Assembly (NCBI GenBank): GCA_016712355.1
Contig: JADJRF010000005.1
Location: 2,255,819 to 2,319,818 of the forward strand
DNA length: 64,000 nucleotides
Reading direction: 5' to 3'
Source of the DNA: Vampirovibrionales bacterium
Lineage (GTDB): Bacteria > Cyanobacteriota > Vampirovibrionia > Vampirovibrionales > Vampirovibrionaceae
Shown: in pieces, positions 17,023 to 64,000 of the stretch
How the letters are laid out: each line of letters opens with the position of its first letter
Position numbering within the stretch: position 1 is the stretch's first letter
The notes under the pieces: model-generated
What the model was told of the DNA's origin: nothing
Database searches by the model: none
What the model saw: the letters and a program-made list of their open reading frames with translations, nothing else
Program-made: the position numbers and the translations under genes

Positions 17023-17052
17023 CGCTCAGCCCATCGGACGACAGGCTGAGCG
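17023..17052 (-). terminator. weak candidate intrinsic terminator downstream of the glycine-zipper gene
   Basis: A 9-bp stem (CGCTCAGCC / GGCTGAGCG) with a 12-nt loop. On the minus strand it is followed by UCGCUUUUGG, a short U tract. Confidence 0.3.
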
Positions 17053-17086
17053 CGCATTCTCCCTTGGTTGAAACCGTGGGAGAAGA

Positions 17087-18626: not shown

Positions 18627-18746
18627 CGCCTATCCCATACTTCAGACATTAACTGATCAATTTTGATCACTCATAAAATTAGCAACTCATAAAATTAGCA
18701 GGAGAGATTTTTAATCGGGTTTTTTAGCTATAACTCTTGGGCTCTG

Positions 18747-18776
18747 AACGATGGCATTGACCATCGTTTTTTTTTT
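18747..18776 (+). terminator. rho-independent terminator
   Basis: AACGATGG - cattga - CCATCGTT stem-loop immediately followed by T10 (18767-18776), about 120 nt after the 18626 stop. Confidence 0.6.
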
Positions 18777-18860
18777 GCCAAAATCAACAAGACGCCAAGG
18801 GCCTTGCCCCGGCGTTTGACCTTCCCCAGCCTAAAGACTTGAAAGCATTAGGACTTTGGC

Positions 18861-20162: not shown

Positions 20163-20199
20163 TGCCCGTACTGGGAACAATGCCATAAAGGAGCGCGTC

Positions 20200-42598: not shown

Positions 42599-42672
<74 letters not shown>

Positions 42673-46364: not shown

Positions 46365-49300
46365 ATGGGTATTGCGCGCATGCCGCCTCCTTCGGAAAAC
46401 CGCATAGTCAGACGAGCCGGGAATCAACACCGGTATATTTGCCTGACCGCCAAAGGCGCACGCACCCTTCAGACCCACGAAGACGACCTGGTGGGATGGA
46501 TTGGACGCCTTTTCGGCGTCCTCAACGGCGGCCTGACTTGGGGAAAAGCCCTCAAACGCTTTGTGGGCGCGCTGCTGCTCTCGATGATGATTATGCAGCA
46601 GGTTCAGGCCCTTCCCACCGGCTGGCAGGTCGAGAGCGGCGACGTCAATTTCGAGGTCGTCAACGGCAATACGCTCAATATCACCAGCCAGAGCCAGCAG
46701 GCTATCGTCAATTACCAGAGCTTTCATATCGCCCAGGGAGAAAGCGTCAACTTCTTTCTGGGCAATAACTTCTCCTCTATTCTCAACCGGATTCTGGGCG
46801 GGGGGACGAGCTCGATTATGGGCAACCTCAGCGCCAATACCGGAACCGTCATTTTGACCAACCCGGCGGGCATTAACTTTGGCGCCACGGCCAACGTGAA
46901 CGTCGGGAGCCTGATTGCGTCCAGTCTGCATCTGTCCAGCGCCGACTACCTCGCCAATAACTGGACCTTCGGGCGGGTGGACGGGATGGGCCCCGGCGCG
47001 ATCCAGAACAGCGGCAACATCGCCGCGCAATCAGGCGGCTTTGTCGTCCTGTCGGGCGGGGCTGTCAGCAACAGCGGCAATATCTTTGCGCCTGATGGCG
47101 CGGTAAAACTCGCGGTCGGCGACCGAATCCGCCTGTCGATGAGTGGGCAGCAGGCGGTAGAAGTCACCATCGACCAGAGTCTGCTCAGCGCGATAGAGGG
47201 CCTGCGCGACGCGATCGGCAACACGGGCGTGATTGACGCTCATACCATTGAGCTTCAGGCCAAGCTGAGCGAAGCGCTTTATGAACGCACGATCAACAAT
47301 GAAGGCGTGATGCGTACCGTCAGCGCCACGCGCGAAGGCGCCAGCATCAAGGTCCTGGGCTACACGGATAATCAGCTCGCGCAGATCCGCAACGCCGGAA
47401 CCCTCGACGTAAGCGCCAACGCCGTCACGACATTTGACGGCGGCGAACTGACGATGGAAGGCGATCGGGTTGATAATACGGGCAACCTGCTGGCGCGCGG
47501 GGCCGACACGGGCCACGGCGGCCGTATTCACGCCTTGGGCGGACAGGTGGCGTTTCATGGAACCGCCATTGTAGATGCATCCGGCGGGACCGGCGGCGGC
47601 GAAGTGCTTATCGGCGGCGACTTCCAGGGCCAAAACCCCGCAATCCGCAATGCGCAGAAAACATGGGTGACCCGCGACGTTCAAATCAAGGCGGACGCCA
47701 CGCAACAGGGCGACGGCGGTAAAGTCATCGTCTGGGCGGATCAATCGACCCAATACTATGGCCATATCAGCGCCCAAGGCGGCGCACAAGGCGGCGACGG
47801 CGGCCTGGTAGAAGTCTCCGGCAAAGAAAACCTCGCCTTTATGGGCGACGTCGACACCCGCGCCGTCAACGGCGCCATGGGGACCGTCCTGCTGGATCCG
47901 ACGGATATCAACATCGTCGACGGCGCCGGGGCGGACGACGCGCAACTCAATGACGACCAGATTCTCGCCGCAGACGCGCCCGCCACCATGAACATCGGCG
48001 AAACCAAGCTGGAATCGATGGCCGCCACTTCCAACGTGGTGCTTCAGGCCAACAACAACATCACCGTAAACAACCTGACGGATAACACGCTGGGGCTGGC
48101 CGCCACCACCGGATCCATCACGCTGACCGCCGACGCCGACAACAGCGGGGCCGGGACGTTCTCGATGGCCGATACGGCCGACGTCATTCGCACAGAGGGC
48201 GGTAATATCACCATCAGCGGCGCGTCGGTCACGCTGGGCAAACTCAGCACCAAGGGCGCGGCGGGCGATAAAACCGGCGGCGCGATCAGCGTCAGTTCGC
48301 GCGATGCGCTCACTGCCAGCGGGACGATTGATACCGGCAACGGCGCCATTAGCCTCAATGCGGATTCTGACGGCAGCGGCGCCGGGACCCTCACCGTCAG
48401 CGCCAACGTCACCTCCGGCGGCGGCAACGTCACGCTCAAAGGCGATCAATTTGACCTGAATAACGCGCTCGACGCCGGAAGCGGCAGCGTGAGCATCACG
48501 GCCAGTAATAATATTCGTATTAACGTGGGCAACGCGACAGATAACGGCGACGGCGCCACGCTTTTTGACGTCTCCAACCCGGAACTCAACCGTATTACCG
48601 CCGCCAGCGTCACTATCGGCGATACCACCACCACCAACAACCAGCTCTATACGATGGGCGATCTGGATCTCTCTGGAAGCGGCGCCGGTAAATTCGCGCT
48701 CACCCTGCAGAATATGAACAAAATCAATCTGCAGAATAATATCACGCTGGGCGGTTATAACTTTACTGCCTACTCCAGCGCCGGCGACGTTCAACTGACC
48801 AGTAATAAAGACATCACCAAAACCACCGGGGGAGACGCGACGCTCACGTTCAAAGCTGCGGGCAATATTATTCTCAACGCGGCAGCAGGCGCAACCAGTG
48901 ACCTTACCTCCAGCAGCAATAAACTCAATGTCATTTTCAATTCGGATAGCGACGCTTCTGGCAGTGGGGCCATCTATTTAAATTATGTCAACCTCACCAG
49001 CAATAGCGGCAACGTAACCTTCGGCGGCGGCGCAGACCCCACCACAACAGCCGCCCGCGGAAACGCAACTTATTTCAATGGCGTCAACATCAGTCAGAGC
49101 GCCTTTACATTAGGCGCCGGCAATCTCGGCATTCGGGGCCAAGGCTATAGTATCGGTACGTCCGGCGCTCATCATGGGATTAATATTGACGGCACAACAC
49201 TTTCCAGCACCAGCGGAAATATGACCCTCGTCGGAACAGGCGGCACCGGCAATAGTAGCACCGGAAACCGCGGAATTCTAACCTCTTACCTCACACTCAC

Positions 49301-52300
49301 GACCGCAGATGGCGCGATTTCTTTAACCGGCACAGGCGGGGCTAGCGCAGCAACAGAAAATACAGGCGTAGAGTTCAACTACGGCTCCTTTTCCGCCAGC
49401 GGTTCTGGGGGAATCAGTATCACGGGAACCGGAACCGGGAGCGGCAATAATGCTTATGGCGTCGCGGTTAAAGTTGTTAATACCTTTCAGACCAATACGG
49501 GCGCTATCAGCCTGTCAGGCACTAGCAACGGCACCGGCGCGAATTATAACAATGGCGTCTCTGTTGACGCTTCTACCATCAATACTCTGGGCGGGAATAT
49601 TGCGTTTACCGGGACCGGCAGTAGCACAGCTACGGGAATTGAGAATCATGGCGTTTTTATCAATGCATCGTCTGTCTCTACGACCGGCGCGGGGACGTTG
49701 AGCTTAACCGGGACCGGGGGTAAGGGGACCAATGATAACCATGGGGTCGATATTCGCCAGACGTCCAGCGTGAGTACGGCGTCTGGGGACCTCACCATCG
49801 TGGGGAACGGACTGGCTAGCGCGACGGGCAGTTGGAATCTAGGAGTGCTATTAGGGTATTCTTCTGGTATTTCTTCTCAGAATGGTAACATCAACATCAC
49901 CGCCACCGGGGGCGGCAGCTCCGGCGGCGGCGCGGGTATTGATATGTGGGACCTGTCCACGATTCAAGCCACCGGCACTGGGAACATCTCGATTACCGGA
50001 ACCGCCACCGGCAGCGCCGCAGACTCGTATGGGATCTGGCTCGAAGGCAGCAGCAAGGTGATTGCAGCCTCTGGCAATATTACGCTGACTGGCACGGGCG
50101 GCGGCGCCAATAACGACCTTCGGTTTGAATCGCTCTCTACCGGAACGGGTAATGTGATCGGCGCCAATACCATGACGGGTAATATTACGCTGATTGGCAA
50201 TAGTTACACGTTCTCGGATTTTAAATTCCAGAATAACGGCGGGACGCTGACGTTTAAACCCAGAACCGCCAGCACCAGCATTGGCGTGGCAGGCGGCGCG
50301 GGGGCGCTGAGTTTTACGGACGCCAGCTTCTTTAATTTTATCGATACGGCGACGGTTTCTCCGGGCAAAATTATCCTGGGCGATAAATCGCTGGGCAGCG
50401 GCGCGGTGAATATTAACGCGTATAACTACAGCGCCAAGGCCTATGATATTGATATCGCCGGCGGCAGCGTGACGCTGGCAGGCGCCTTGACCACCGGCGC
50501 CAACGATGCGGGACTCTATGCGCTCAGCGGCAATTTGTTGCTGAATAATACCATCAGCGGAACAGGTAACGTGTTATTACAGGCTTCTGGCACGATTAAC
50601 GACGACGGCGCAACCGATCGCGTGTCGACCTCTGGACTTCTTACGCTGAATGCGGGCGGCAACGTCGGCAATACCTCTACTTTTAATACGTCAGTGGGCT
50701 CGCTCGCAATTAATGGCACAGGAGCCGGCAGCATCAGTATTACCGAAGCGAATGCCATCACCATTAACGCTTCCAGCGCAACGCAAGCCGTCAGCGTGAT
50801 TGCGGGCGGTAATATTACAACCGCCGGCGCCATTACCACCACGGGCAACCTGACGCTTCAAACCACGGCCGGCACGCTGGACGCCGCGGGCGGGAATCTC
50901 ACGTCCTCAGGAGACTTGAGCCTGAGCGCGACCGGGGCTTTAACGCTCGATACAGCCGGGACGAGCAGAACGCATCAGGCGAAAAATATTAATTTAACCG
51001 GCAGCAGCATTACCGTGGCCAACAGCGGTACCGTTGTTGAAGCCACCGGCAGCGGCAGCAATACAACCTTAAGTTACGATGACAATGCGGGTACGGCCGG
51101 CATTTTACCCATCACGCCCGGCGATACCATTAGCGCAACCGGCGGCGCAGGCGGCATTATTAACAGCACCGGCGATCTGGCGAATGCAGGGACGCTTCGC
51201 GCTCTTGGCAAAACCGGCAGCGTCACGGTTAATTATGACAGCAGCAATTTAAACCTGAATAACGTTACGATAACCGTCACCGGCAGCAGCGGATCCATTA
51301 ATTTATCGGGCGACGTATCGGGCAGCGGCAATAACGGCACGCTCACGCAACAAACCGGCGGCTCCACGGTCACCCTCAATACAACCGGCGGATACGGCGT
51401 TTCTGGAAGCAACGTGAATATCACCAGCAGCAATATTATATTCGGCGTTTCGGGCAGCGCCAACTTGAGCGGGAATTTCCATAACGGTATTCTGTCGGGC
51501 TCGTCTGGAAGCAGCTTTTCGCTTACCGACACCGCCAGTGACATTACCACCGGCGCCCTGACCGCCGGGAGCGCCTTGAGCCTGTCCAGCATCACGCACC
51601 TGACCGCAGGCGGCGCGCTGACTTCTACCGGCGCTTTAACGTTAATTGCCGACAGCGACGGCAATAACACCGGCTCCCTCACCAGCAACGGCGTTCTCAC
51701 CAGTAATAATAACGCCATTACCCTCAAAGGCGCACAAGCCGATATAAACGCCAGCGTCAACGCCGGTTCCTCCACCGTCACGCTCACGGCCATGAGCGAT
51801 AAGGAAATTGACGTGGCAGGCGCAACGGATAACGCCGACAGCGGCACGATATTCGACGTTTCCAGCGCGGAATTAGGCAGAATCACTGCCGCGACCGTCA
51901 CCATCGGCGATACGACGACGCCCAATTCGGATACCATCCTGAAAGGCGCGCTGGATCTCTCCGGTTCCGGCGCTGGCAAATTTAATCTTCAACTGCTGAA
52001 TAAGCGCGATGTTATTTTCGACGCCGCCACCGGCATTACCGCTGGCGCCCATACCGTCACCCTTACCGCCAATGACGACGTGACGCTCAACAGCGGCATC
52101 ACCACCAGCAATGGCGCCATTACCCTGACGGCAGACAACGACGGCAGCGGCGCCGGAGCCTTGACGATCAGCGGCAATATCACTTCCGGCAATGCCAATG
52201 TCACGCTCAAAGGCGATCAATTTGACCTCAACAACGCGCTCAACGCCGGAAGCGGCAGCGTCAGCATTACCGCCAGTAATAATATTCGAATAGATGTTGG

Positions 52301-55300
52301 CAATGCGACCGACAATAACGACACGGCAACGCTTTTTGACGTTTCAAACCCGGAACTCAACCGAATCACCGCCGCCAGCGTCACCATCGGCGATACAACC
52401 ACCACCAACAATCAGCTTTACGCCATGGGCGTGCTGAACATGTCCGGCGCCGGCGCCGGTAAATTCGCGCTCACCTTACAGAATATGAATAAAATCAATC
52501 TGCAAAACAATATTACGCTGGGCGGCTATGACTTTACGGCTTATTCCAGCGCCAACAACGTTCAACTGACCGCCGGAAGAGATATCACCAAAAGCGCCGG
52601 CGGCGACGCAACACTCACCCTGAAGGCCGCCGGGAATGTCATTCTGGATTCCACCGTCGGCAACTATAACACTGTCTCTTCCAGCAGCAACAAACTCCAT
52701 GTCGTTATCAACTCCGACAGCGACGCCTCCGGCAGTGGGGCTGTATTTCTGGATTATGTTGATTTCACCACCAATAACGGCAATATCACCATCGGCGGCG
52801 GCGCCGACCCGAGCCTGAGCGCAGCCAGAGGAAACGCAACTTATTATGACGGCGTTTATTTAAATGGCAGCCTGGACACAGGCGCCGGCAATATCTCTGT
52901 CCGAGGGCAAGGCTTCAGTCAGGCCGGAACCGATAACCATTACGGGATCAACCTGAGTGCAGTCATTAGCACTACCACAGGCGATGTCTCCCTGATTGGC
53001 AGCGGAGGCACAGGACGCGACAATCTTTTCGGGATATTTGGCTCTCTTGCGGCCAGCACGCAAAACGGAGACATCACGCTGACGGGTACTGGCGGCAATG
53101 GCACCGGAGGAAACAATAAGGGGATTTATTTATCGGGTTCTCTAACCACGCAAGATGGCATTATGACCATCACGGGGACTTCCGGCATTGGATTAGGAGG
53201 AGATGAGGGAATACATTTGTCTGGACAAACCATCTCTTCATCGACGGGTAATATTTCTCTAGTTGGAAATAGCGTCGGGGCAGGCAGTGGAATTGTAATA
53301 CAGAGTTCAACGATATCGTCTGCTGACGGACTGATTAGCATGGTCGGCACGGGCGGGAGTAATAATCCTAGCGCTGCATATGTAAATGGAATTAGCATCT
53401 ATAACTCTGCACAAGTGTTCACCACTGGCACAGGCAATATCACCCTGACAGGTACGGGCGGACTCGGCACTTTTGATGGCGGCGGCATTTGGGAAAATAA
53501 CGGCGTTGAATTTGATGGTTCAGCCCAGGTTTATACCGCCAGCGGCACGCTCACGATTACAGGCACTGCCATTGACGGCAACTCAGCCGATATCGGCATG
53601 CCATTTCCCAGCGCAACCAGCACAATTGGCGCCAACACGATGACGGGTGATATCGTCATGATTGGCAACAGTTTTGATTTTACTTACGGCCAGATTCGCA
53701 ATAATGGCGGTAATATTATCTTTAAACCGCGAACCGCCAGCACGACTATCGGCATTAACGGCGGCGCAGGCGCATTAAGCTTTACCAACGCCAATTTCTT
53801 TAATTATATTGATACCACCACGGCCTCGCCCAGCAAAATAATTCTCGGCGACAGCGCCGCAGGGACCGGCGCCGTCAACATCGCAACCGGCTGGGATTTC
53901 AGCGGCAAAGCGTACGATATCGACGTGTACGGCGGCAGCATTACCGGAGCCGGAAGCATTACCACCGGAGCCAACAATTTAGGACTTTACGCCCGCACCG
54001 GTGGACTCACCCAGAATGGCGCGATTACCAGCCTTGGCAATTTAATCCTGCAATCCAATGGACTTCTTGACCTCAACGGCAATATTCAAACGACCGGCGG
54101 CAATTTAACGTTAACAGCCAACGGCGGCGGTAATATTACGCTGGACGACGCCGGAAGCGCGCGCACGCACAAAGGGCAAAACGTCACCATTACCGCCACT
54201 GGCGGCGGAACCATCAGCATGTCCAACGCTGGCTCTCTCGTGCAGGCGACCGGAACCGGCATCGGCGCCACTTATGATGATAACGGCGGGACGCCTTATC
54301 TGCCGATTAATCCAGGGGATAGCATCGGCGCCGCAGTGGGAGGCGCAGGCGCACTGACAGTCGACGGAAACTTCTCAAGCGTCGGCACGCTGCGCGCGTC
54401 ATCTGGCAGCGGCGATATTACGATTAATTATAGCAGCAGCGACTTAAACCTCAATAACGTCACAATTGATACCGCAACGGCTGCAAATGGAAGCATTAGC
54501 ATTTTAAACGACCTGCCGTCGGGCGCGGGAGATAATGGCACTATTGACGCTCAAGCCGGGAGCAGCGGCGGCACGGTCACCCTGAACATCACCAATGGGC
54601 ATAATGTTTCAGGAACCAATACCAACATCACGGCCAATAATATTGTTTTCAATGTTGCCGGTAATAGCACGTTGAGCGGAAATTTCCATAATGGAATTTT
54701 GTCAGGCTCCTCGGGCGGCAGCTTCTCACTCACTGATACCGCCTCCAGTCTCAACCTCAACTCCCTCTCCGCCGCTACCAACCTCTCCATCACCGCCGCC
54801 CTCGGACATATCGACGCCGCAAATACCCTCTCCGCCAGTAATATCTCACTCATCACTCAATCCAATGGCGATATCACTCTGCACGACAACCTCACCGCCA
54901 CCAACAACCTCACTCTCACACTCGACGGAACCGGCGTCCTCACCCAGTCCGCAGGCGTCCTCTCCGCGCAAACTCTCTCCCTCGATACCCATACCTCCGT
55001 CGGCTCCGCACTCGACAGGCTCGATACCAATATCTCCAACCTCTCCGCCACTATCCAGGGGCCCGCTCACCACCTCTTCCTCGCCGAAGCCAATAACCTC
55101 TCCATCAACGCTTCTTCCGCCTCCGGAACACTCGATATCACCGCCGCTGGCGATATTACTACCGCCGGCGACATCTCCGCCGATGCCACAACCCTCGCCT
55201 CCTCTGACCCCGATGGCGATATCGCCCTCAATCATAACGTTACGGGCACTACTTCCCTCACCATCACCGCCTCAGGCACTGGCGATATTACCCAGTCCGC

Positions 55301-58300
55301 AGGCGTCCTCAACGCCGGAACCCTTGCGCTGAGCTCGACCTCCGGCGACATCGGAACCGCAGGCAACGCCATCGATTCCAATGCCACCGCAGCCTCTCTC
55401 AATACATCCGGCGACGCCTTCCTCTCTGAGGCCAATAACCTCACCATCAATGCCTCCGCCGTCGGCGGCACTCTTGAAATTTCCGCCGCTGGCGATATCG
55501 CCACCGCTGGCGCCATCTCCGCCGATGCCACAACCCTCGCCTCCTCTGACCCCGATGGCGATATTACACTCAATCATAACGTCACAGGGACTACTTCCCT
55601 CACCATTACTGCCTCAGGCACTGGCGATATTACCCAGTCCGCAGGCGTACTCAACGCCGGAACACTCGCGCTGAGCGCGACCTCCGGCGACATCGGAACC
55701 GCAGGCAACGCCATCGATTCCAATGCCACCGCCGCTTCTCTCAATACCACAGGCGACGCCTTCCTCTCTGAAGCCAGTAACCTCACCCTCAATGCCTCTG
55801 CCGTCGGCGGCACGCTTGAAATTTCCGCCGCTGGCGATATTACCACCGCTGGCGCCATTTCCGCCGACGCCACGACCCTCGCCTCCTCTGACCCCGATGG
55901 CGATATCTCCCTCAATCATAACGTCACAGGCACTACTTCCCTCACCATTACTGCCTCAGGCACTGGCGATATTACCCAGTCCGCAGGCGTCCTCAACGCC
56001 GGAACCCTTGCGCTTTCCTCCACCTCCGGCAACATCGGAACCGCAGGCAACGCCATCGATTCCAATGCCGCCGCAGCCTCCCTCAATACATCCGGCGACG
56101 CCTTCCTCTCTGAGGCCAATAACCTCACCATCAATGCCTCTGCCGTCGGCGGCACGCTTGAAATTTCCGCCGCTGGCGATATTACCACCGCCGGCGCCAT
56201 TTCCGCCGATGCCGCCTCCATCGCCTCCTCTGACCCCGATGGCGATATTACACTCAATCATAACGTCACAGGGACTACTTCCCTCACCATTACTGCCTCA
56301 GGCACTGGCGATATTACCCAGTCCGCGGGAACCATTACAGGCGGACTCCTCACCTTTAACTCAAACGGCGGACTCGGAACCGCTCTCGACAGACTCGATA
56401 TCAATGCCGCCACACTCACACTCAATACCGCCGGCGACCTCTTCCTCAACGAAACCGATAACATTACCCTCAACGCCGCCACCGCCCTCCATACCCTCGA
56501 CCTCGCCGCCGCTGGCAATATCACCCTGCAAGGCAACCTCAACGCCGCCGATACCCTCACCCTCAACTCCGCCACTGGCGATATCCACCTCGATAACGGA
56601 GCCGCGCTCACTCACCAGTCCTCCACCATCTCCTTTACCGCACATAACATCGATATCGCTCACGCCGGCACTCTCGTACACGCCATCGGCAACTCCGGCG
56701 GCGCTTCCTTCGACGACCACGGCGGAACCGCCGTCAACCCCGGCGATACCATTAACGCTCTCGGAGCAGGCGGCACCATCACCATCGATGGCAACTTCGC
56801 CTCCGTCGGAACCCTACAGGCACAAGCCGGCGGCACCGTCTCCATCGACTACCAGAACTCTGACCTCGACCTCTCCAACGTCACCATCAACGCTGGCGGC
56901 GGCGGCGGCGGTACTATCACCTTCCTCAACGACCTCCCCTCAGGCCCAGCCAATAACGGAACCCTCTCCGCCCTCGGCGACTCCGTCAACGTCCTCATTT
57001 CCACCGCCAATAACCACAGCGTCTCCGGAACCGGACTCCTCATTAACGCCACCGGCGGCGTTCAGTTCCATATCGATAACTCCCTCAACCTCTCAGGCAA
57101 CTTCAACCAGGCCGAACTCTCCGGCTACGCCACCAATGGCAGCTTCTCACTCACCGATACCGCCTCCAATCTTAACCTCAACTCCCTCTCCGCCGCTACC
57201 AACCTCTCCATCACCGCCGCCCTCGGACATATCGACGCCGCAAATACCCTCTCCGCCAGTAATATCTCACTCATCACTCAATCCAATGGCGATATCACTC
57301 TGCACGACAACCTCACCGCCACCAACAACCTCACTCTCACACTCGACGGAACCGGCGTCCTCACCCAGTCCGCAGGCGTCCTCTCCGCGCAAACTCTCTC
57401 CCTCGATACCCATACCTCCGTCGGCTCCGCACTCGACAGGCTCGATACCAATATCTCCAACCTCTCCGCCACTATCCAGGGGCCCGCTCACCACCTCTTC
57501 CTCGCCGAAGCCAATAACCTCTCCATCAACGCTTCTTCCGCCTCCGGAACACTCGATATCACCGCCGCTGGCGATATTACTACCGCCGGCGACATCTCCG
57601 CCGATGCCACAACCCTCGCCTCCTCTGACCCCGATGGCGATATCGCCCTCAATCATAACGTTACGGGCACTACTTCCCTCACCATCACCGCCTCAGGCAC
57701 TGGCGATATTACCCAGTCCGCAGGCGTCCTCAACGCCGGAACCCTTGCGCTGAGCTCGACCTCCGGCGACATCGGAACCGCAGGCAACGCCATCGATTCC
57801 AATGCCACCGCAGCCTCTCTCAATACCACAGGCGACGCCTTCCTCTCTGAGGCCAATAACCTCACCATCAATGCCTCTGCCGTCGGCGGCACTCTCCAGA
57901 TCGCCGCCGCTGGCGATATCGCCACCGCTGGCGCCATTTCCGCCGACGCCGCCTCCATCGCCTCCTCTGACCCCGATGGCGATATTACCCTCAATCATAA
58001 CGTCACAGGGACTACTTCCCTTACCATTACTGCCTCAGGCACTGGCGATATTACCCAGTCCGCAGGCGTACTCAACGCCGGAACACTCGCGCTGAGCGCG
58101 ACCTCCGGCGACATCGGAACCGCAGGCAACGCCATCGATTCCAATGCCACCGCAGCTTCTCTCAATACCACAGGCGACGCCTTCCTCTCTGAAGCCAGTA
58201 ACCTCACCCTCAATGCCTCTGCCGTCGGCGGCACGCTTGAAATTTCCGCCGCTGGCGATATTACCACCGCTGGCGCCATCTCCGCCGATACCGCCTCCAT

Positions 58301-60956
58301 CGCCTCCTCTGACCCCGATGGCGATATTACCCTCAATCATAACGTCACGGGCACTACTTCCCTCACCATTTCTGCCTCAGGTACTGGCGATATCACCCAA
58401 TCCGCAGGCGTCCTCAACGCCGGAACCCTTGCGCTGAGCGCGACTTCTGGCAACATCGGAACCGCAGGCAACGCCATCGATTCCAATGCCGCCGCAGCCT
58501 CCCTCAATACATCCGGCGACGCCTTCCTCTCTGAGGCCAATAACCTCACCATCAATGCCTCTGCCGTCGGCGGCACGCTTGAAATTTCCGCCGCTGGCGA
58601 TATCGCCACCGCTGGCGCCATTTCCGCCGATACCGCCTCCATCGCCTCCTCTGACCCCGATGGCGATATTACCCTCAATCATAACGTCACAGGCACCACG
58701 TCCCTCACCATTACCGCCTCAGGCACGGGCGATATCACCCAATCCGCAGGAACCATTACAGGCGGACTCCTCACCTTTAATACCAACGGCGGACTCGGTA
58801 CCGCTCTCGACAGGCTCGATATCAATGCCGCCACCCTCACGCTCAATACCACCGGCGACCTCTTCCTCAACGAATCCGATAACATTACCCTCAACGCCGC
58901 CACCGCCCTCCATACCCTCGACCTCGCCGCCGCTGGCAATATCACCCTGCAAGGCAACCTCAACGCCGCCGATACCCTCACCCTCAACTCCGCCACTGGC
59001 GATATCCACCTCGATAACGGAGCCGCGCTCACTCACCAGTCCTCCACCATCTCCTTTACCGCACATAACATCGATATCGCTCACGCCGGCACTCTCGTAC
59101 ACGCCATCGGCAACTCCGGCGGCGCTTCCTTCGACGACCACGGCGGAACCGCCGTCAACCCCGGCGATACCATTAACGCTCTCGGAGCAGGCGGCACCAT
59201 CACCATCGATGGCAACTTCGCCTCCGTCGGAACCCTACAGGCACAAGCCGGCGGCACCGTCTCCATCGACTACCAGAACTCTGACCTCGACCTCTCCAAC
59301 GTCACCATCAACGCTGGCGGCGGCGGCGGCGGTACTATCACCTTCCTCAACGACCTCCCCTCAGGCCCAGCCAATAACGGAACCCTCTCCGCCCTCGGCG
59401 ACTCCGTCAACGTCCTCATTTCCACCGCCAATAACCACAGCGTCTCCGGAACCGGACTCCTCATTAACGCCACCGGCGGCGTTCAGTTCCATATCGATAA
59501 CTCCCTCAACCTCTCAGGCAACTTCAACCAGGCCGAACTCTCCGGCTACGCCACCAATGGCAGCTTCTCACTCACCGATACCGCCTCCAATATCAACCTC
59601 AACTCCCTCTCCGCCGCTACCAACCTCTCCATCACCGCCGCCCTCGGACATATCGACGCCGCAAATACCCTCTCCGCCAGTAATATCTCACTCATCACTC
59701 AATCCAATGGCGATATCACTCTGCACGACAACCTCACCGCCACCAACAACCTCACCCTCACACTCGACGGAACCGGCGTCCTCACCCAATCCGCAGGCGT
59801 CCTCTCCGCGCAAACTCTCTCCCTCGATACCCATACCTCCGTCGGCTCCGCACTCGACAGGCTCGATACCAATATCTCCAACCTCTCCGCCACTATCCAG
59901 GGGCCCGCTCACCACCTCTTCCTCGCCGAAGCCAATAACCTCTCCATCAACGCTTCTTCCGCCTCCGGAACACTCGATATCACCGCCGCTGGCGATATTA
60001 CTACCGCCGGCGACATCTCCGCCGATGCCACAACCCTCGCCTCCTCTGACCCCGATGGCGATATCGCCCTCAATCATAACGTCACAGGCACTACTTCCCT
60101 CACCATCACCGCCTCAGGCACTGGCGATATTACCCAGTCCGCAGGCGTCCTCAACGCCGGAACCCTTGCGCTGAGCTCGACCTCCGGCGACATCGGAACC
60201 GCAGGCAACGCCATCGATTCCAATGCCACCGCAGCCTCTCTCAATACCTCAGGCGACGCCTTCCTCTCTGAGGCCAACAACCTCACCATCAATGCCTCTG
60301 CCGTCGGCGGCACTCTCCAGATCGCCGCCGCTGGCGATATCGCCACCGCTGGCGCCATCTCCGCCGACGCCGCCTCCATCGCCTCCTCTGACCCCGATGG
60401 CGATATTACCCTCAATCATAACGTCACAGGGACTACTTCCCTCACCATTACTGCCTCAGGCACTGGCGATATTACCCAGTCCGCAGGCGTACTCAACGCC
60501 GGAACACTCGCGCTGAGCGCGACCTCCGGCGACATCGGAACCGCAGGCAACGCCATCGATTCCAATGCCACCGCAGCTTCTCTCAATACCACAGGCGACG
60601 CCTTCCTCTCTGAAGCCAGTAACCTCACCCTCAATGCCTCTGCCGTCGGCGGCACGCTTGAAATTTCCGCCGCTGGCGATATTACCACCGCTGGCGCCAT
60701 CTCCGCCGACACCACGTCCCTCGCCTCCTCTGATCCCGCTGCCGATATTACCCTCTATCCTACCGTCACAGTGACTACGTCCCTCACCATTTCTGCCTCA
60801 GGCACTGGCTATATTTCCCGGTCCGCAGGCGTACTCAACGCCGGATCCCTCGCGCTGAGCGCCACCTTCCGGCAACATCGGAACCGCAGGCAACGCCATC
60901 GATTCCAATGCCGCCGCAGCCTCCCTCAATACATCCGGCGACGCCTTCCTCTCTGA
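46365..60956 (+). CDS. second giant TpsA/filamentous-haemagglutinin-like exoprotein (tpsA2); frame intact for 4863 codons, after which the same repeat protein continues in shifted frames to the window end
   Basis: The N-terminal TPS domain is paralogous to tpsA1 (LPTGWQVESGDVNFEVVNGNTLNITSQSQQAIVNYQSFHIAQGESVNFF...NPAGINFG...). It is followed by thousands of residues of Gly/Thr/Ala/Ser/Asn-rich beta-helix-type repeats. The apparent stop at 60954-60956 results from a +1 insertion near 60867. Confidence 0.85.
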   Translation: MGIARMPPPSENRIVRRAGNQHRYICLTAKGARTLQTHEDDLVGWIGRLFGVLNGGLTWGKALKRFVGALLLSMMIMQQVQALPTGWQVESGDVNFEVVNGNTLNITSQSQQAIVNYQSFHIAQGESVNFFLGNNFSSILNRILGGGTSSIMGNLSANTGTVILTNPAGINFGATANVNVGSLIASSLHLSSADYLANNWTFGRVDGMGPGAIQNSGNIAAQSGGFVVLSGGAVSNSGNIFAPDGAVKLAVGDRIRLSMSGQQAVEVTIDQSLLSAIEGLRDAIGNTGVIDAHTIELQAKLSEALYERTINNEGVMRTVSATREGASIKVLGYTDNQLAQIRNAGTLDVSANAVTTFDGGELTMEGDRVDNTGNLLARGADTGHGGRIHALGGQVAFHGTAIVDASGGTGGGEVLIGGDFQGQNPAIRNAQKTWVTRDVQIKADATQQGDGGKVIVWADQSTQYYGHISAQGGAQGGDGGLVEVSGKENLAFMGDVDTRAVNGAMGTVLLDPTDINIVDGAGADDAQLNDDQILAADAPATMNIGETKLESMAATSNVVLQANNNITVNNLTDNTLGLAATTGSITLTADADNSGAGTFSMADTADVIRTEGGNITISGASVTLGKLSTKGAAGDKTGGAISVSSRDALTASGTIDTGNGAISLNADSDGSGAGTLTVSANVTSGGGNVTLKGDQFDLNNALDAGSGSVSITASNNIRINVGNATDNGDGATLFDVSNPELNRITAASVTIGDTTTTNNQLYTMGDLDLSGSGAGKFALTLQNMNKINLQNNITLGGYNFTAYSSAGDVQLTSNKDITKTTGGDATLTFKAAGNIILNAAAGATSDLTSSSNKLNVIFNSDSDASGSGAIYLNYVNLTSNSGNVTFGGGADPTTTAARGNATYFNGVNISQSAFTLGAGNLGIRGQGYSIGTSGAHHGINIDGTTLSSTSGNMTLVGTGGTGNSSTGNRGILTSYLTLTTADGAISLTGTGGASAATENTGVEFNYGSFSASGSGGISITGTGTGSGNNAYGVAVKVVNTFQTNTGAISLSGTSNGTGANYNNGVSVDASTINTLGGNIAFTGTGSSTATGIENHGVFINASSVSTTGAGTLSLTGTGGKGTNDNHGVDIRQTSSVSTASGDLTIVGNGLASATGSWNLGVLLGYSSGISSQNGNINITATGGGSSGGGAGIDMWDLSTIQATGTGNISITGTATGSAADSYGIWLEGSSKVIAASGNITLTGTGGGANNDLRFESLSTGTGNVIGANTMTGNITLIGNSYTFSDFKFQNNGGTLTFKPRTASTSIGVAGGAGALSFTDASFFNFIDTATVSPGKIILGDKSLGSGAVNINAYNYSAKAYDIDIAGGSVTLAGALTTGANDAGLYALSGNLLLNNTISGTGNVLLQASGTINDDGATDRVSTSGLLTLNAGGNVGNTSTFNTSVGSLAINGTGAGSISITEANAITINASSATQAVSVIAGGNITTAGAITTTGNLTLQTTAGTLDAAGGNLTSSGDLSLSATGALTLDTAGTSRTHQAKNINLTGSSITVANSGTVVEATGSGSNTTLSYDDNAGTAGILPITPGDTISATGGAGGIINSTGDLANAGTLRALGKTGSVTVNYDSSNLNLNNVTITVTGSSGSINLSGDVSGSGNNGTLTQQTGGSTVTLNTTGGYGVSGSNVNITSSNIIFGVSGSANLSGNFHNGILSGSSGSSFSLTDTASDITTGALTAGSALSLSSITHLTAGGALTSTGALTLIADSDGNNTGSLTSNGVLTSNNNAITLKGAQADINASVNAGSSTVTLTAMSDKEIDVAGATDNADSGTIFDVSSAELGRITAATVTIGDTTTPNSDTILKGALDLSGSGAGKFNLQLLNKRDVIFDAATGITAGAHTVTLTANDDVTLNSGITTSNGAITLTADNDGSGAGALTISGNITSGNANVTLKGDQFDLNNALNAGSGSVSITASNNIRIDVGNATDNNDTATLFDVSNPELNRITAASVTIGDTTTTNNQLYAMGVLNMSGAGAGKFALTLQNMNKINLQNNITLGGYDFTAYSSANNVQLTAGRDITKSAGGDATLTLKAAGNVILDSTVGNYNTVSSSSNKLHVVINSDSDASGSGAVFLDYVDFTTNNGNITIGGGADPSLSAARGNATYYDGVYLNGSLDTGAGNISVRGQGFSQAGTDNHYGINLSAVISTTTGDVSLIGSGGTGRDNLFGIFGSLAASTQNGDITLTGTGGNGTGGNNKGIYLSGSLTTQDGIMTITGTSGIGLGGDEGIHLSGQTISSSTGNISLVGNSVGAGSGIVIQSSTISSADGLISMVGTGGSNNPSAAYVNGISIYNSAQVFTTGTGNITLTGTGGLGTFDGGGIWENNGVEFDGSAQVYTASGTLTITGTAIDGNSADIGMPFPSATSTIGANTMTGDIVMIGNSFDFTYGQIRNNGGNIIFKPRTASTTIGINGGAGALSFTNANFFNYIDTTTASPSKIILGDSAAGTGAVNIATGWDFSGKAYDIDVYGGSITGAGSITTGANNLGLYARTGGLTQNGAITSLGNLILQSNGLLDLNGNIQTTGGNLTLTANGGGNITLDDAGSARTHKGQNVTITATGGGTISMSNAGSLVQATGTGIGATYDDNGGTPYLPINPGDSIGAAVGGAGALTVDGNFSSVGTLRASSGSGDITINYSSSDLNLNNVTIDTATAANGSISILNDLPSGAGDNGTIDAQAGSSGGTVTLNITNGHNVSGTNTNITANNIVFNVAGNSTLSGNFHNGILSGSSGGSFSLTDTASSLNLNSLSAATNLSITAALGHIDAANTLSASNISLITQSNGDITLHDNLTATNNLTLTLDGTGVLTQSAGVLSAQTLSLDTHTSVGSALDRLDTNISNLSATIQGPAHHLFLAEANNLSINASSASGTLDITAAGDITTAGDISADATTLASSDPDGDIALNHNVTGTTSLTITASGTGDITQSAGVLNAGTLALSSTSGDIGTAGNAIDSNATAASLNTSGDAFLSEANNLTINASAVGGTLEISAAGDIATAGAISADATTLASSDPDGDITLNHNVTGTTSLTITASGTGDITQSAGVLNAGTLALSATSGDIGTAGNAIDSNATAASLNTTGDAFLSEASNLTLNASAVGGTLEISAAGDITTAGAISADATTLASSDPDGDISLNHNVTGTTSLTITASGTGDITQSAGVLNAGTLALSSTSGNIGTAGNAIDSNAAAASLNTSGDAFLSEANNLTINASAVGGTLEISAAGDITTAGAISADAASIASSDPDGDITLNHNVTGTTSLTITASGTGDITQSAGTITGGLLTFNSNGGLGTALDRLDINAATLTLNTAGDLFLNETDNITLNAATALHTLDLAAAGNITLQGNLNAADTLTLNSATGDIHLDNGAALTHQSSTISFTAHNIDIAHAGTLVHAIGNSGGASFDDHGGTAVNPGDTINALGAGGTITIDGNFASVGTLQAQAGGTVSIDYQNSDLDLSNVTINAGGGGGGTITFLNDLPSGPANNGTLSALGDSVNVLISTANNHSVSGTGLLINATGGVQFHIDNSLNLSGNFNQAELSGYATNGSFSLTDTASNLNLNSLSAATNLSITAALGHIDAANTLSASNISLITQSNGDITLHDNLTATNNLTLTLDGTGVLTQSAGVLSAQTLSLDTHTSVGSALDRLDTNISNLSATIQGPAHHLFLAEANNLSINASSASGTLDITAAGDITTAGDISADATTLASSDPDGDIALNHNVTGTTSLTITASGTGDITQSAGVLNAGTLALSSTSGDIGTAGNAIDSNATAASLNTTGDAFLSEANNLTINASAVGGTLQIAAAGDIATAGAISADAASIASSDPDGDITLNHNVTGTTSLTITASGTGDITQSAGVLNAGTLALSATSGDIGTAGNAIDSNATAASLNTTGDAFLSEASNLTLNASAVGGTLEISAAGDITTAGAISADTASIASSDPDGDITLNHNVTGTTSLTISASGTGDITQSAGVLNAGTLALSATSGNIGTAGNAIDSNAAAASLNTSGDAFLSEANNLTINASAVGGTLEISAAGDIATAGAISADTASIASSDPDGDITLNHNVTGTTSLTITASGTGDITQSAGTITGGLLTFNTNGGLGTALDRLDINAATLTLNTTGDLFLNESDNITLNAATALHTLDLAAAGNITLQGNLNAADTLTLNSATGDIHLDNGAALTHQSSTISFTAHNIDIAHAGTLVHAIGNSGGASFDDHGGTAVNPGDTINALGAGGTITIDGNFASVGTLQAQAGGTVSIDYQNSDLDLSNVTINAGGGGGGTITFLNDLPSGPANNGTLSALGDSVNVLISTANNHSVSGTGLLINATGGVQFHIDNSLNLSGNFNQAELSGYATNGSFSLTDTASNINLNSLSAATNLSITAALGHIDAANTLSASNISLITQSNGDITLHDNLTATNNLTLTLDGTGVLTQSAGVLSAQTLSLDTHTSVGSALDRLDTNISNLSATIQGPAHHLFLAEANNLSINASSASGTLDITAAGDITTAGDISADATTLASSDPDGDIALNHNVTGTTSLTITASGTGDITQSAGVLNAGTLALSSTSGDIGTAGNAIDSNATAASLNTSGDAFLSEANNLTINASAVGGTLQIAAAGDIATAGAISADAASIASSDPDGDITLNHNVTGTTSLTITASGTGDITQSAGVLNAGTLALSATSGDIGTAGNAIDSNATAASLNTTGDAFLSEASNLTLNASAVGGTLEISAAGDITTAGAISADTTSLASSDPAADITLYPTVTVTTSLTISASGTGYISRSAGVLNAGSLALSATFRQHRNRRQRHRFQCRRSLPQYIRRRLPL

Positions 60957-63900
60957 GGCCAATAACCTCACCATCAATGCCTCTGCCGTCGGCGGCACGC
61001 TTGAAATTTCCGCCGCTGGCGATATCGCCACCGCTGGCGCCATTTCCGCCGATGCCGCCTCCATCACCTCCTCTGACCCCGATGGCGATATTACCCTCAA
61101 TCATAACGTCACAGGGACCACTTCCCTCACCATTACCGCCTCAGGCACGGGCGATATCACCCAATCCGCAGGAACCATTACAGGCGGACTCCTCACCTTT
61201 AATTCCAACGGCGGACTCGGAACCGCTCTCGACAGGCTCGATATCAATGCCGCCACCCTCACGCTCAATACCACCGGCGACCTCTTCCTCAACGAATCCG
61301 ATAACATTACCCTCAACGCCGCCACCGCCCTCCATACCCTCGACCTCGCCGCCGCTGGCAATATCACCCTGCAAGGCAACCTCAACGCCGCCGATACCCT
61401 CACCCTCAACTCCGCCACTGGCGATATCCACCTCGATAACGGAGCCGCGCTCACTCACCAGTCCTCCACCATCTCCTTTACCGCACATAACATCGATATC
61501 GCTCACGCCGGCACTCTCGTACACGCCATCGGCAACTCCGGCGGCGCTTCCTTCGACGACCACGGCGGAACCGCCGTCAACCCCGGCGATACCATTAACG
61601 CTCTCGGAGCAGGCGGCACCATCACCATCGATGGCAACTTCGCCTCCGTCGGAACCCTACAGGCACAAGCCGGCGGCACCGTCTCCATCGACTACCAGAA
61701 CTCTGACCTCGACCTCTCCAACGTCACCATCAACGCTGGCGGCGGCGGCGGCGGTACTATCACCTTCCTCAACGACCTCCCCTCAGGCCCAGCCAATAAC
61801 GGAACCCTCTCCGCCCTCGGCGACTCCGTCAACGTCCTCATTTCCACCGCCAATAACCACAGCGTCTCCGGAACCGGACTCCTCATTAACGCCACCGGCG
61901 GCGTTCAGTTCCATATCGATAACTCCCTCAACCTCTCAGGCAACTTCAACCAGGCCGAACTCTCCGGCTACGCCACCAATGGCAGCTTCTCACTCACCGA
62001 TACCGCCTCCAATATCAACCTCAACTCCCTCTCCGCCGCTACCAACCTCTCCATCACCGCCGCCCTCGGACATATCGACGCCGCAAATACCCTCTCCGCC
62101 AGTAATATCTCACTCATCACTCAATCCAATGGCGATATCACTCTGCACGACAACCTCACCGCCACCAACAACCTCACCCTCACACTCGACGGAACCGGCG
62201 TCCTCACCCAATCCGCAGGCGTCCTCTCCGCGCAAACTCTCTCCCTCGATACCCATACCTCCGTCGGCTCCGCACTCGACAGGCTCGATACCAATATCTC
62301 CAACCTCTCCGCCACTATCCAGGGGCCCGCTCACCACCTCTTCCTCGCCGAAGCCAATAACCTCTCCATCAACGCTTCTTCCGCCTCCGGAACACTCGAT
62401 ATCACCGCCGCTGGCGATATTACTACCGCCGGCGACATCTCCGCCGATGCCACAACCCTCGCCTCCTCTGACCCCGATGGCGATATCGCCCTCAATCATA
62501 ACGTCACAGGGACTACTTCCCTCACCATTACTGCCTCAGGCACTGGCGATATTACCCAGTCCGCAGGCGTCCTCAACGCCGGAACCCTTGCGCTGAGCTC
62601 GACCTCCGGCGACATCGGAACCGCAGGCAACGCCATCGATTCCAATGCCACCGCAGCCTCCCTCAATACCACAGGCGACGCCTTCCTCTCTGAGGCCAAT
62701 AACCTCACCATCAATGCCTCTGCCGTCGGCGGCACTCTCCAGATCGCCGCCGCTGGCGATATCGCCACCGCTGGCGCCATTTCCGCCGACGCCGCCTCCA
62801 TCGCCTCCTCTGACCCCGATGGCGATATTACCCTCAATCATAACGTCACAGGGACTACTTCCCTCACCATTACTGCCTCAGGCACTGGCGATATTACCCA
62901 GTCCGCAGGCGTACTCAACGCCGGAACACTCGCGCTGAGCGCGACCTCCGGCGACATCGGAACCGACCCTCGCCTCCTCTGACCCCGATGGCGATATTAC
63001 CCTCAATCATAACGTCACAGGCACTACTTCCCTCACCATTACTGCCTCAGGCACTGGCGATATTACCCAGTCCGCAGGCGTCCTCAACGCCGGAACCCTT
63101 GCGCTTTCCTCCACCTCCGGCAACATCGGAACCGCAGGCAACGCCATCGATTCCAATGCCGCCGCAGCCTCCCTCAATACATCCGGCGACGCCTTCCTCT
63201 CTGAGGCCAATAACCTCACCATCAATGCCTCTGCCGTCGGCGGCACGCTTCAAGTCTCTGCCGCCGGCGATATCGCCACCGCTGGCGCCATTTCCGCCGA
63301 TGCCGCCTCCATCACCTCCTCTGACCCCGATGGCGATATTACCCTCAATCATAACGTCACAGGGACTACTTCCCTCACCATTACTGCCTCAGGCACTGGC
63401 GATATTACTCAATCCGCGGGAACCATTACAGGCGGACTCCTCACCTTTAACTCAAACGGCGGACTCGGAACCGCGCTCGACAGACTCGATATCAATGCCG
63501 CCACACTCACACTCAATACCACCGGCGACCTCTTCCTCAACGAAACCGATAACATTACCCTCAACGCCGCCACCGCCCTCCATACCCTCGACCTCGCCGC
63601 CGCTGGCAATATCACCCTGCAAGGCAACCTCAACGCCGCCGATACCCTCACCCTCAACTCCGCCACTGGCGATATCCACCTCGATAACGGAGCCGCGCTC
63701 ACTCACCAGTCCTCCACCATCTCCTTTACCGCACATAACATCGATATCGCTCACGCCGGCACTCTCGTACACGCCATCGGCAACTCCGGCGGCGCTTCCT
63801 TCGACGACCACGGCGGAACCGCCGTCAACCCCGGCGATACCATTAACGCTCTCGGAGCAGGCGGCACCATCACCATCGATGGCAACTTCGCCTCCGTCGG

Positions 63901-64000
63901 AACCCTACAGGCACAAGCCGGCGGCACCGTCTCCATCGACTACCAGAACTCTGACCTCGACCTCTCCAACGTCACCATCAACGCTGGCGGCGGCGGCGGC
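54690..64000 (+). repeat. 2421-bp (807-aa) super-repeat with at least 3.8 near-identical copies, each containing 4 x 342-bp (114-aa) sub-repeats; the array runs off the window
   Basis: Identical alternate-frame ORFs recur at 54846, 57267, 59688 and 62110. The spacings are 2421, 2421 and 2422 bp; the extra base is the frameshift. Within each unit, 342-bp sub-repeat ORFs are consecutive (55232, 55574, 55916; 57653, 57995, 58337 ...). The protein repeat is GDITQSAGVLNAGTLALSSTSGDIGTAGNAIDSNATAASLNTSGDAFLSEANNLTINASAVGGTLEISAAGDI.TAGAISADA..LASSDPDGDITLNHNVTGTTSLTITASGT. Confidence 0.9.
60700..64000 (+). pseudogene. 3' continuation of the tpsA2 repeat array carrying a substitution cluster with a +1 frameshift (about 60715-60870) and a roughly 170-bp intra-repeat deletion (about 62965) that creates a TGA at 62980-62982; either a disrupted gene or an assembly artefact
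   Basis: The canonical gcgacctccggcgacatcgg reads gccaccttccggcaacatcgg at 60861-60880, with an extra T. Preceding codons carry unusual substitutions (PDGD to PAAD, NHNVTGT to YPTVTVT). At 62961-62990, gacatcggaacc joins directly to gaccctcgcctcctctgaccccgatggc, skipping about 57 codons of the unit. After this the repeat continues in a third frame. Confidence 0.5.

What the first reader, a model, noticed from the sequence alone, without database searches (positions are those of the whole stretch)
54690..64000. Hierarchical, nearly 100% identical repeat array: 2421-bp super-units each built from four 342-bp units
Alternate-frame ORFs of identical sequence recur with exact 2421-bp spacing, and 342-bp sub-repeats are nested inside each unit. 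The nucleotide-level identity between units appears essentially perfect over kilobases. This implies very recent amplification or ongoing concerted evolution by unequal crossing-over or gene conversion. Such arrays are classical substrates for length (phase or antigenic) variation of surface fibres. They are also classical sources of collapsed or expanded assemblies. The copy number in the real genome may differ from what is shown.
Basis: seen in the sequence. Interest (0 to 1): 0.7.

Follow-up and report, generated by a model that had tools for sequence, protein, structure and literature searches.

The report
Repeat array inside giant secreted adhesin gene
The repeat array is real, but it is the recently duplicated rod-building part of one huge secreted adhesin-like gene in an uncultured wastewater bacterium, which is an ordinary way for such fibre proteins to grow, and two reading-frame breaks inside it may be sequencing-consensus errors.

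Summary
The array exists. There are three full units of 2421/2421/2422 bp (54717-61980), and a fourth runs off the window. Each unit holds about four 342-bp sub-units. Unit-to-unit identity is 97.7-98.5%, not about 100%, although the last 682 bp of every unit is perfectly identical. The whole array is coding sequence of one giant gene (46380-60956 is GenBank MBK8191162.1, and the coding sequence continues to at least 64000). The protein is a two-partner-secretion (TpsA, filamentous-haemagglutinin-like) exoprotein. It comes from a Vampirovibrionaceae MAG (JADJRF000000000) assembled from Nanopore reads. A modelled unit is a beta-helix, and its best structural match is the TpsA adhesin EtpA. Differences between units fall mostly on third codon positions (dN/dS about 0.17). 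The four units share variants in all three possible two-against-two groupings, which fits duplication plus gene conversion or unequal crossing-over under purifying selection. Unit lengths are multiples of three, so recombination would change fibre length and would not switch expression on or off. The alternate-frame ORFs are shadows of C-rich codon usage. Two lesions break the frame: +1 nt at 60867, preceded by a 137-bp patch of 15 odd substitutions, and a 173-nt deletion at 62965/6. These are either consensus artefacts or recent inactivation; reads are needed to decide. No population evidence for variation could be obtained.

The parts
46380..60956 (+). CDS as annotated in GenBank (MBK8191162.1, 4858 aa, 'filamentous hemagglutinin N-terminal domain-containing protein'). 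It is the first, frame-intact part of the giant TpsA gene; the longest ORF starts at 46365.
   Evidence: (100% identity to P0003)
46539..46613 (+). Probable Sec signal peptide (KALKRFVGALLLSMMIMQQVQA, followed by LPTGW). Inferred from the sequence and from alignment with the paralogue.
   Evidence: inference, no predictor was run
46614..47315 (+). TPS secretion domain with an NPxG motif (LTNPAGINFG)
   Evidence: PF05860 E 1.1e-17; TIGR01901 adhes_NPXG E 1.4e-13; 35% identity over 700 aa to the other TpsA in the window
48285..54929 (+). Older, diverged duplication of a module of about 1257 aa (aa 641-1789 vs 1898-2855; 40-74% aa identity; 77% nt identity for 48333-49146 vs 52104-52914). Its end is the degenerate 'unit 0' from which the young array grew.
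54717..57137 (+). Super-unit U1 (2421 bp, 807 aa)
57138..59558 (+). Super-unit U2 (2421 bp)
59559..61980 (+). Super-unit U3 (2422 bp; contains the odd patch and the +1 insertion)
61981..64000 (+). Super-unit U4, cut by the window end; lacks 173 nt
55076..56525 (+). Block of 342-bp (114-aa) sub-units in U1. The equivalent blocks are 57497-58946, 59918-61368 and 62340-63616.
56455..57137 (+). The part of the unit that is 100% identical in all copies (also 58876-59558 and 61298-61980; U4 is identical as far as the window goes)
60734..60870 (+). Anomalous patch in U3: 15 substitutions found only in U3 within 137 bp, ending in a 1-nt insertion (T at 60867, in CCTCC to CCTTCC)
60954..60956 (+). Stop codon created by the +1 shift; it ends the annotated protein
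62964..62967 (+). Junction of a 173-nt (out-of-frame) deletion relative to U1 55700-55872, with only 2 nt of microhomology. It produces the spurious 169-bp 'repeat' that TRF reports at 62801-63134.

Best explanation
The array is the youngest layer of internal duplication in the shaft of one giant two-partner-secretion exoprotein (TpsA, filamentous-haemagglutinin-like). The protein is at least 5879 aa within the window. It comes from an uncultured Vampirovibrionaceae bacterium from activated sludge.

Shown: the N-terminus carries a TPS secretion domain. Everything downstream is Ala/Thr/Gly/Ser/Leu/Asn-rich repeat sequence (Pfam DUF5649 'stalk' repeats) that models as a parallel beta-helix. An ancestral 114-aa helix segment was duplicated into a block. 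An 807-aa module containing four of these segments was then duplicated in tandem at least three more times. The copies have since exchanged sequence, while selection preserved the protein sequence.

Inferred: the protein is exported by Sec, then threaded through an Omp85-type TpsB pore, and forms a long rigid surface or secreted fibre. Each extra 807-aa unit lengthens the rod by roughly 15-20 nm (scaling from FHA, from memory). In-register unequal crossing-over would add or remove whole units, or 114-aa segments, without breaking the frame.

The two frame-breaking lesions in U3 and U4 are more likely residual consensus errors of a Nanopore assembly in a near-identical repeat (about 55-60%) than real inactivating mutations (about 40%).
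For: Array and hierarchy.

One coding sequence: the ORF 46365-60956 is in a single frame. After removing T60867 and padding the 62965/6 junction, the reading frame is open for 5879 codons to the window end.

TpsA identity: PF05860 E 1.1e-17; TIGR01901 E 1.4e-13; GenBank name; homologues carry PF05860; 35% identity over 700 aa to the neighbouring TpsA, which sits next to a ShlB/POTRA_2 TpsB.

Shaft: DUF5649 in 13 stretches. That family is listed as a fibrillar-adhesin stalk domain in PMC8286594.

Selection: 57 of 82 variable columns are third codon positions (p = 3e-11), and dN/dS is 0.15-0.20.

Exchange between units: all three 2|2 partitions are present, and a 682-bp block shows no variation.

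Assembly used CANU, then Racon, two rounds of medaka and Illumina Racon. Nanopore coverage was 80x and Illumina 43x, polymorphic rate 0.0006, strain heterogeneity 0.
Against: No TpsB gene lies next to this gene: upstream is glyA (SHMT) on the other strand, and the 3' end is outside the window. As assembled, the gene is interrupted twice, so it could be a pseudogene. The C-terminal 250 residues of the unit model have low confidence (pLDDT about 50). Foldseek against PDB gave no significant hit. Short-read polishing of near-identical copies can itself erase or shuffle copy-specific variants, so part of the mosaic pattern and the perfect 682-bp block could be an artefact of polishing. No expression, secretion or adhesion data exist.
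Confidence: 0.85

Rival explanations
1. The gene is a real, recently inactivated pseudogene, or a truncated variant. On this reading the +1 insertion, the substitution patch and the 173-nt deletion are genuine mutations, and the array downstream of 60956 is no longer translated.
For: The lesions are in the deposited, Illumina-polished consensus. If the 15 substitutions are real they make U3 uniquely mappable, so polishing there should have been accurate. The 173-nt deletion has only 2-nt microhomology, is out of register and out of frame, and looks like illegitimate recombination rather than a typical consensus error. The patch is free of codon-position bias (4/6/5) and hits residues conserved in every other copy and in paralogues, as expected without selection.
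Against: Neutral decay should be spread evenly. U3 has 15 private changes in 137 bp and 1 in the other 2284 bp (p = 1e-18). The patch is transversion-rich (3 ts: 12 tv, against 49:33 elsewhere; p = 0.009). It matches no other copy in the window (at most 89%) and no paralogue. Everything downstream is still open in the shifted frames and 98-100% identical to intact units. In a repeat, reads from the true sequence map better to clean copies, which would leave an error patch unpolished.
Confidence: 0.4
2. The array, or its copy number, is an assembly artefact. On this reading a shorter or longer real array was expanded, collapsed or made chimeric by CANU and polishing, or variants from different strains were laid out as different units.
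For: Near-identical 2.4-kb tandem units are hard for any assembler. U3 has almost no private variants outside the odd patch and is a mosaic of U2-like and U4-like segments. Two structural oddities lie inside the array.
Against: U1, U2 and U4 carry 24, 16 and 11 private variants, mostly synonymous, so at least three distinct copies exist. The assembly is from long reads at 80x, with strain heterogeneity 0 and polymorphic rate 0.0006. The array sits inside a 2.55-Mb contig. The same protein also contains older, diverged copies of the module, which shows a real history of duplication.
Confidence: 0.15
3. This is a programmed contingency locus. On this reading, unit gain and loss or frameshifting is used to switch or vary the surface antigen, which is phase or antigenic variation.
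For: The array has high-identity tandem units that have clearly recombined. Comparable identical-repeat surface proteins are known to vary in length (own knowledge: GBS alpha C/Rib).
Against: Unit lengths are multiples of 3, so copy-number change cannot switch the frame. No homopolymer or short-repeat tract, invertase or silent cassette was seen. Substitutions are under purifying, not diversifying, selection (dN/dS about 0.17). No second sequence of the locus exists to show polymorphism.
Confidence: 0.1

Closest known systems
Filamentous haemagglutinin FhaB/FHA of Bordetella pertussis and the TpsA family in general
   Same: It has an N-terminal TPS domain with an NPxG motif, a very large size, a repeat-built beta-helical shaft, and a TpsB gene of ShlB/POTRA_2 type in the neighbourhood.
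   Different: The shaft repeats are DUF5649-type, not the Fil_haemagg (PF05594/PF13332) repeats. The repeats are organised in three nested levels, and the youngest level is 98-100% identical at the DNA level. The host is a non-photosynthetic cyanobacterium (Vampirovibrionaceae), not a proteobacterium. No adjacent TpsB was found, and the C-terminus was not seen.
EtpA of enterotoxigenic E. coli (PDB 8vba) and HMW1 of Haemophilus influenzae (2odl)
   Different: Sequence identity is only 15%. EtpA and HMW1 are 3-4 times shorter, and I do not know them to contain kilobase-scale near-identical modules (own knowledge).
Giant repeat adhesins with near-identical tandem units, such as Marinomonas primoryensis ice-binding adhesin MpIBP region II, and the GBS alpha C / Rib proteins (own knowledge, not tested here)
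   Same: Rod length is set by the number of near-identical in-frame tandem units. The units are homogenised at the DNA level, the arrays are difficult to assemble, and copy number is known to vary in some of these.
   Different: Those units are single Ig-like domains of about 80-104 aa, exported by T1SS or sortase pathways. Here the unit is an 807-aa beta-helix segment, itself made of 114-aa sub-units, in a TPS substrate.

Membership tests
TpsA (two-partner secretion exoprotein / filamentous haemagglutinin family) | N-terminal TPS secretion domain with conserved NPNL/NPNG-type motif | tested here: met
   PF05860 E 1.1e-17, 65 bits against a cut-off of 33.5. TIGR01901 adhes_NPXG 50.5 bits against a cut-off of 29.1. 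The motif LTNPAGINFG is visible in the translation.
TpsA (two-partner secretion exoprotein / filamentous haemagglutinin family) | Sec-type signal peptide ahead of the TPS domain | tested here: inconclusive
   A hydrophobic stretch followed by VQA|LP lies directly before the TPS domain, and it aligns with the same region of the paralogue. No signal-peptide predictor was available.
TpsA (two-partner secretion exoprotein / filamentous haemagglutinin family) | Passenger folds as an extended right-handed beta-helix | tested here: met
TpsA (two-partner secretion exoprotein / filamentous haemagglutinin family) | Cognate Omp85-family TpsB transporter, usually adjacent | tested here: inconclusive
   A TpsB (ShlB + POTRA_2) is at 14248-16104, but it is paired with the other TpsA (2737-14070), about 30 kb away. 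Nothing of this kind lies upstream of the target gene. The downstream side is outside the window.
Fibrillar adhesin stalk built of DUF5649 repeats (Pfam PF18886) | Multiple DUF5649 repeat matches above the Pfam threshold | tested here: met
   55.4 bits against a cut-off of 25, in 13 stretches over the protein and 5 per unit. The family is listed as a stalk domain in PMC8286594. An adhesive tip domain was not identified.
CdiA-type contact-dependent inhibition toxin | VENN/pretoxin motif followed by a C-terminal toxin and an immunity gene | not testable with these tools
   There is no VENN or VDNN motif in the 5879 aa visible, but the C-terminus lies beyond the window and the contig could not be fetched.
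Phase-variable / contingency locus | A repeat whose copy-number change shifts the frame or promoter spacing, or an invertible or cassette mechanism | tested here: not met
   2421 and 342 are multiples of 3. Only trivial 18-bp in-frame periodicities were found. No recombinase or cassette lies nearby.
Phase-variable / contingency locus | Observed length or sequence polymorphism between cells or strains | not testable with these tools
   No second copy of the locus was found in any collection. Reads were not available.

The most novel reading that the evidence does not exclude
The giant TpsA fibres (two in this window, and at least two more on the contig) could be the prey- or host-attachment apparatus of a Vampirovibrionaceae predator. 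On this reading, the near-identical 807-aa modules are an actively used 'length dial' changed by unequal crossing-over. The frame-breaking lesions would then be real and would mark a sub-population variant that secretes a truncated, C-terminus-less fibre.
Probability: 0.08. Interest if true: 0.55.

Novelty: new member of a known kind. Interest (0 to 1): 0.27.

Why it matters
It matters for three modest reasons.

- **Annotation.** The deposited protein (4858 aa) is probably a truncated call of a gene of more than 5900 aa. The 'ORFs' seen in other frames are not genes.
- **Method.** The locus shows how near-identical kilobase repeats in long-read MAGs keep frame-breaking lesions that need read-level checking.
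- **Biology.** It documents multi-level, selection-constrained concerted evolution in a TPS beta-helix shaft. It also shows that non-photosynthetic cyanobacteria of the Vampirovibrio lineage carry several giant FHA-like proteins. These were not discussed among the attachment factors proposed for V. chlorellavorus (PMC4451040).

None of this changes current understanding of adhesins or repeats.

Tried and rejected
- **Fetching the rest of the contig.** The look-up of encoding contigs was tried with the giant ORF (two start choices) and with SHMT (two start choices). None is on record, so the rest of the contig, including the array end, C-terminus and any downstream TpsB, could not be read.
- **Looking for related loci.** The genome-contig scan with the unit found only a 31%-identical relative in a Methylophilaceae MAG, and that locus has no tandem array. 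The metagenome-contig scan found nothing.
- **Word-indexed protein search.** The search with the unit returned two weak hits and missed the protein itself. The N-terminal search returned only proteins of 1225 aa or less. This tool seems blind to giant or low-complexity proteins, so 'no close orthologue' is weak evidence.
- **Gene conversion as the source of the odd U3 patch.** This was tested and rejected for every donor I could see: other copies in the window (at most 89%), the other TpsA, paralogue P0006 and distant relatives.
- **Strain mixture as the source of inter-unit differences.** Rejected on strain heterogeneity 0 and polymorphic rate 0.0006.
- **Alternate-frame ORFs as real genes.** Rejected: their translations are Arg/His/Pro-rich and junk-like, and they sit inside a frame with strong family hits.
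- **Arrays in relatives.** I checked whether relatives carry equally young arrays. Of 9 relatives checked (8 giant, 4346-7943 aa, plus the 1687-aa paralogue P0006), only one (P0024) has internal copies of 90% identity or more. However, relatives from short-read assemblies are biased against such arrays.
Full report

Yes, with corrections. Identity at a lag of 2421 nt rises abruptly from background to 0.85-1.00 at 54.7 kb and stays there. Self-BLAST gives three main matches:
- 54717-60543 vs 57138-62965 at 98.06% over 5828 nt, with one gap.
- 54717-58122 vs 59559-62965 at 97.7%.
- 55873-56909 vs 62964-64000 at 98.5%.

The array therefore consists of U1 54717-57137, U2 57138-59558, U3 59559-61980 (2422 bp) and U4 from 61981 to past the window end.

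TRF and BLAST find the nested 342-bp period at 55076-56525 and at the homologous blocks. Sub-units S1-S3 are 89-91% identical to one another. S4 is 69-75% identical because its last third has diverged. The translation shows three further, degenerate 114-aa-like segments, so a unit is about 7 x 114 + 9 = 807 aa.

'Nearly 100% identical' is an overstatement. There are 97 variable columns, and the longest exact runs are 653-759 bp. The last 682 bp of the unit is, however, perfectly identical in all copies. It has 0 variable columns, against 86 in the first 1739 (p = 3e-13).

**2. What is it?**

The array lies entirely inside one reading frame. ORF 46365-60956 (4863 aa) has no stop in frame 2 for 14.6 kb. 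The coding strand has a GC skew of about -0.38, which removes stop codons from the other frames. Their translations are Arg/His/Pro-rich nonsense.

The N-terminus has a TPS secretion domain (PF05860 E 1.1e-17; TIGR01901 adhes_NPXG E 1.4e-13). A signal-peptide-like segment precedes it. The rest matches only DUF5649 repeats, in 13 stretches. That Pfam family is listed among the stalk domains of fibrillar adhesins (PMC8286594).

The window holds a second TPS system. It consists of a 3777-aa TpsA (2737-14070, minus strand) that is divergent from a ShlB/POTRA_2 TpsB (14248-16104). The two TpsA proteins share 35% identity over their first 700 residues.

**3. Where does it come from?**

An exhaustive profile-free search of 1.84 billion representatives found 114 relatives. 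The best non-self hit has only 36% identity. The top hit, P0003, is 100% identical to the product of window 46380-60956. It is GenBank MBK8191162.1, named 'MAG: filamentous hemagglutinin N-terminal domain-containing protein [Vampirovibrionales ...]', and lies on a contig of 2,552,426 bp.

The row is MAG Fred_18-Q3-R57-64_MAXAC.379, accession JADJRF000000000. It has 9 contigs and 3.0 Mb, and is classified as f__Vampirovibrionaceae. CheckM completeness/contamination is 95.7/0.85, and strain heterogeneity is 0. Illumina coverage is 43x, Nanopore coverage 80x, and the polymorphic rate is 0.0006.

The assembly was made with CANU on Nanopore reads. [quoted passage not shown] The array was therefore laid out from long reads, which explains why it was assembled at all.

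**4. How did it arise, and is it constrained?**

There are three nested ages of duplication:
- An old duplication of about 1257 aa (aa 641-1789 vs 1898-2855, 40-74% identity). Its end is a degenerate 'unit 0'.
- The 114-aa sub-units (dS 0.24-0.35 between S1-S3).
- The 807-aa units (dS 0.02-0.07).

Outside one anomalous patch, 57 of 82 variable columns are third codon positions and only 2 are second positions (p = 3e-11). Pairwise dN/dS is 0.15-0.20. The copies have therefore diverged under purifying selection on the protein, so they were translated.

The four units support all three possible 2|2 groupings (12|34 at 6 sites, 14|23 at 17, 13|24 at 2). A single tree cannot produce that, so it requires exchange between units by gene conversion or unequal crossing-over.

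There is a caveat. Short-read polishing across near-identical copies could itself blur copy-specific variants.

**5. The frame breaks**

*The U3 patch and insertion.* U3 has a 1-nt insertion (T at 60867, CCTCC to CCTTCC). It shifts the frame and creates the stop at 60954 that ends the annotated protein. Immediately upstream lies a 137-bp patch (60734-60870) with these properties:
- It holds 15 substitutions private to U3, against 1 in the other 2284 bp of U3 (p = 1e-18).
- Its codon positions are 4/6/5, and it has 3 transitions to 12 transversions, against 49:33 elsewhere (p = 0.009).
- The changes replace residues that are invariant in every other copy and conserved in paralogues (DPDGDITLNHNVTG to DPAADITLYPTVTV; GTGDITQ to GTGYISR).
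- It matches no other sequence available (at most 89% in the window; paralogues).

*The U4 deletion.* U4 lacks 173 nt (U1 55700-55872). The junction has 2 nt of microhomology and is out of register and out of frame. This junction also explains the 169-bp 'repeat' that TRF reports.

*What repair shows.* After deleting T60867 and padding the junction, the frame is open for 5879 codons to the window end.

*Weighing the two readings.* I rate residual consensus or polishing error at about 55-60%. The reasons are the localised, error-like spectrum, and the fact that in a repeat the true reads map better to clean copies, which leaves a bad patch unpolished. I rate real, very recent inactivation at about 40%. 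The reasons are that the consensus was polished and that the deletion looks like an illegitimate-recombination event. Only the reads can decide.

**6. Function and variation**

Inferred from the family (own knowledge of FHA, HMW1 and EtpA): the protein is exported by Sec, translocated through a TpsB, and folds into a long beta-helical fibre that acts as an adhesin. Each 807-aa unit would add roughly 15-20 nm if it scales like FHA.

Because 2421 and 342 are multiples of three, recombination between copies changes length, not frame. This is therefore a candidate length-variable fibre, not a phase-variation switch. Substitutions show purifying rather than diversifying selection.

No polymorphism data could be obtained. 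No close orthologue or second assembly of the locus was found. The word-indexed search appears blind to giant proteins, so that absence is weak evidence.

Of 9 relatives checked (8 giant plus the 1687-aa paralogue P0006), only one has internal copies of 90% identity or more. Short-read assemblies are biased against such arrays.

**7. Verdict**

This is a real, well-explained feature: the young, homogenised repeat layer of a giant TPS beta-helix exoprotein gene. It is a new member of a known kind.

The evolutionary interpretation is supported. The phase/antigenic-variation idea is not supported. The assembly caution is well placed.

The host lineage adds mild interest. Vampirovibrionaceae are relatives of an epibiotic algal predator, and the published genome analysis of that predator does not mention such adhesins (PMC4451040). 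That link is speculative.

Noticed in passing
window 2737-16104: There is a second, complete two-partner secretion locus. It consists of a 3777-aa TpsA (2737-14070, minus strand, PF05860 E 1.4e-24) divergent from a TpsB (14248-16104, ShlB + POTRA_2 + Omp85). The TpsA has its own tandem array at 4175-6104: 234-bp (78-aa) units, 8.2 copies, 89% matches.
   Followed up: partly
window 48333-49146 vs 52104-52914 (protein aa 641-1789 vs 1898-2855): An older duplication of a module of about 1257 aa lies inside the same giant gene, at 77% nt and 40-74% aa identity. This gives a third, deeper level of the repeat hierarchy.
   Followed up: partly
window 54000-64000: GC skew is extreme (-0.27 to -0.39, against about -0.05 elsewhere) over the array. 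It comes from C-rich codons for Ala, Thr, Ser, Gly and Asn. This keeps non-coding frames open for up to 676 codons.
   Followed up: yes
same contig, outside the window (P0006 = MBK8190991.1, 1687 aa; P0119, 1100 aa): At least two more FHA-type paralogues are on the same 2.55-Mb contig. P0006 is 46% identical to the unit, and P0119 is 64% identical to part of the N-terminus. The MAG therefore carries a small family of these proteins.
   Followed up: no
window 42599-42672: tRNA-Pro(GGG) is the only RNA gene found in the window. It sits between metW and a WecA-like glycosyltransferase gene.
   Followed up: no
window 16153-21823: Next to the first TPS locus lie a LuxR-type response regulator (16153-16869), a CHASE3 histidine kinase (18861-20162) and a hybrid kinase (20666-21823). 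They are possible regulators of the adhesin genes, but this was not examined.
   Followed up: no
tools (vs 46): The word-indexed protein search did not return the window's own 4858-aa protein, even for a 100% identical 700-aa query, and it listed no protein above about 1400 aa. The exhaustive representative search found the protein at once. Negative results from the former for giant repeat proteins should not be trusted.
   Followed up: partly
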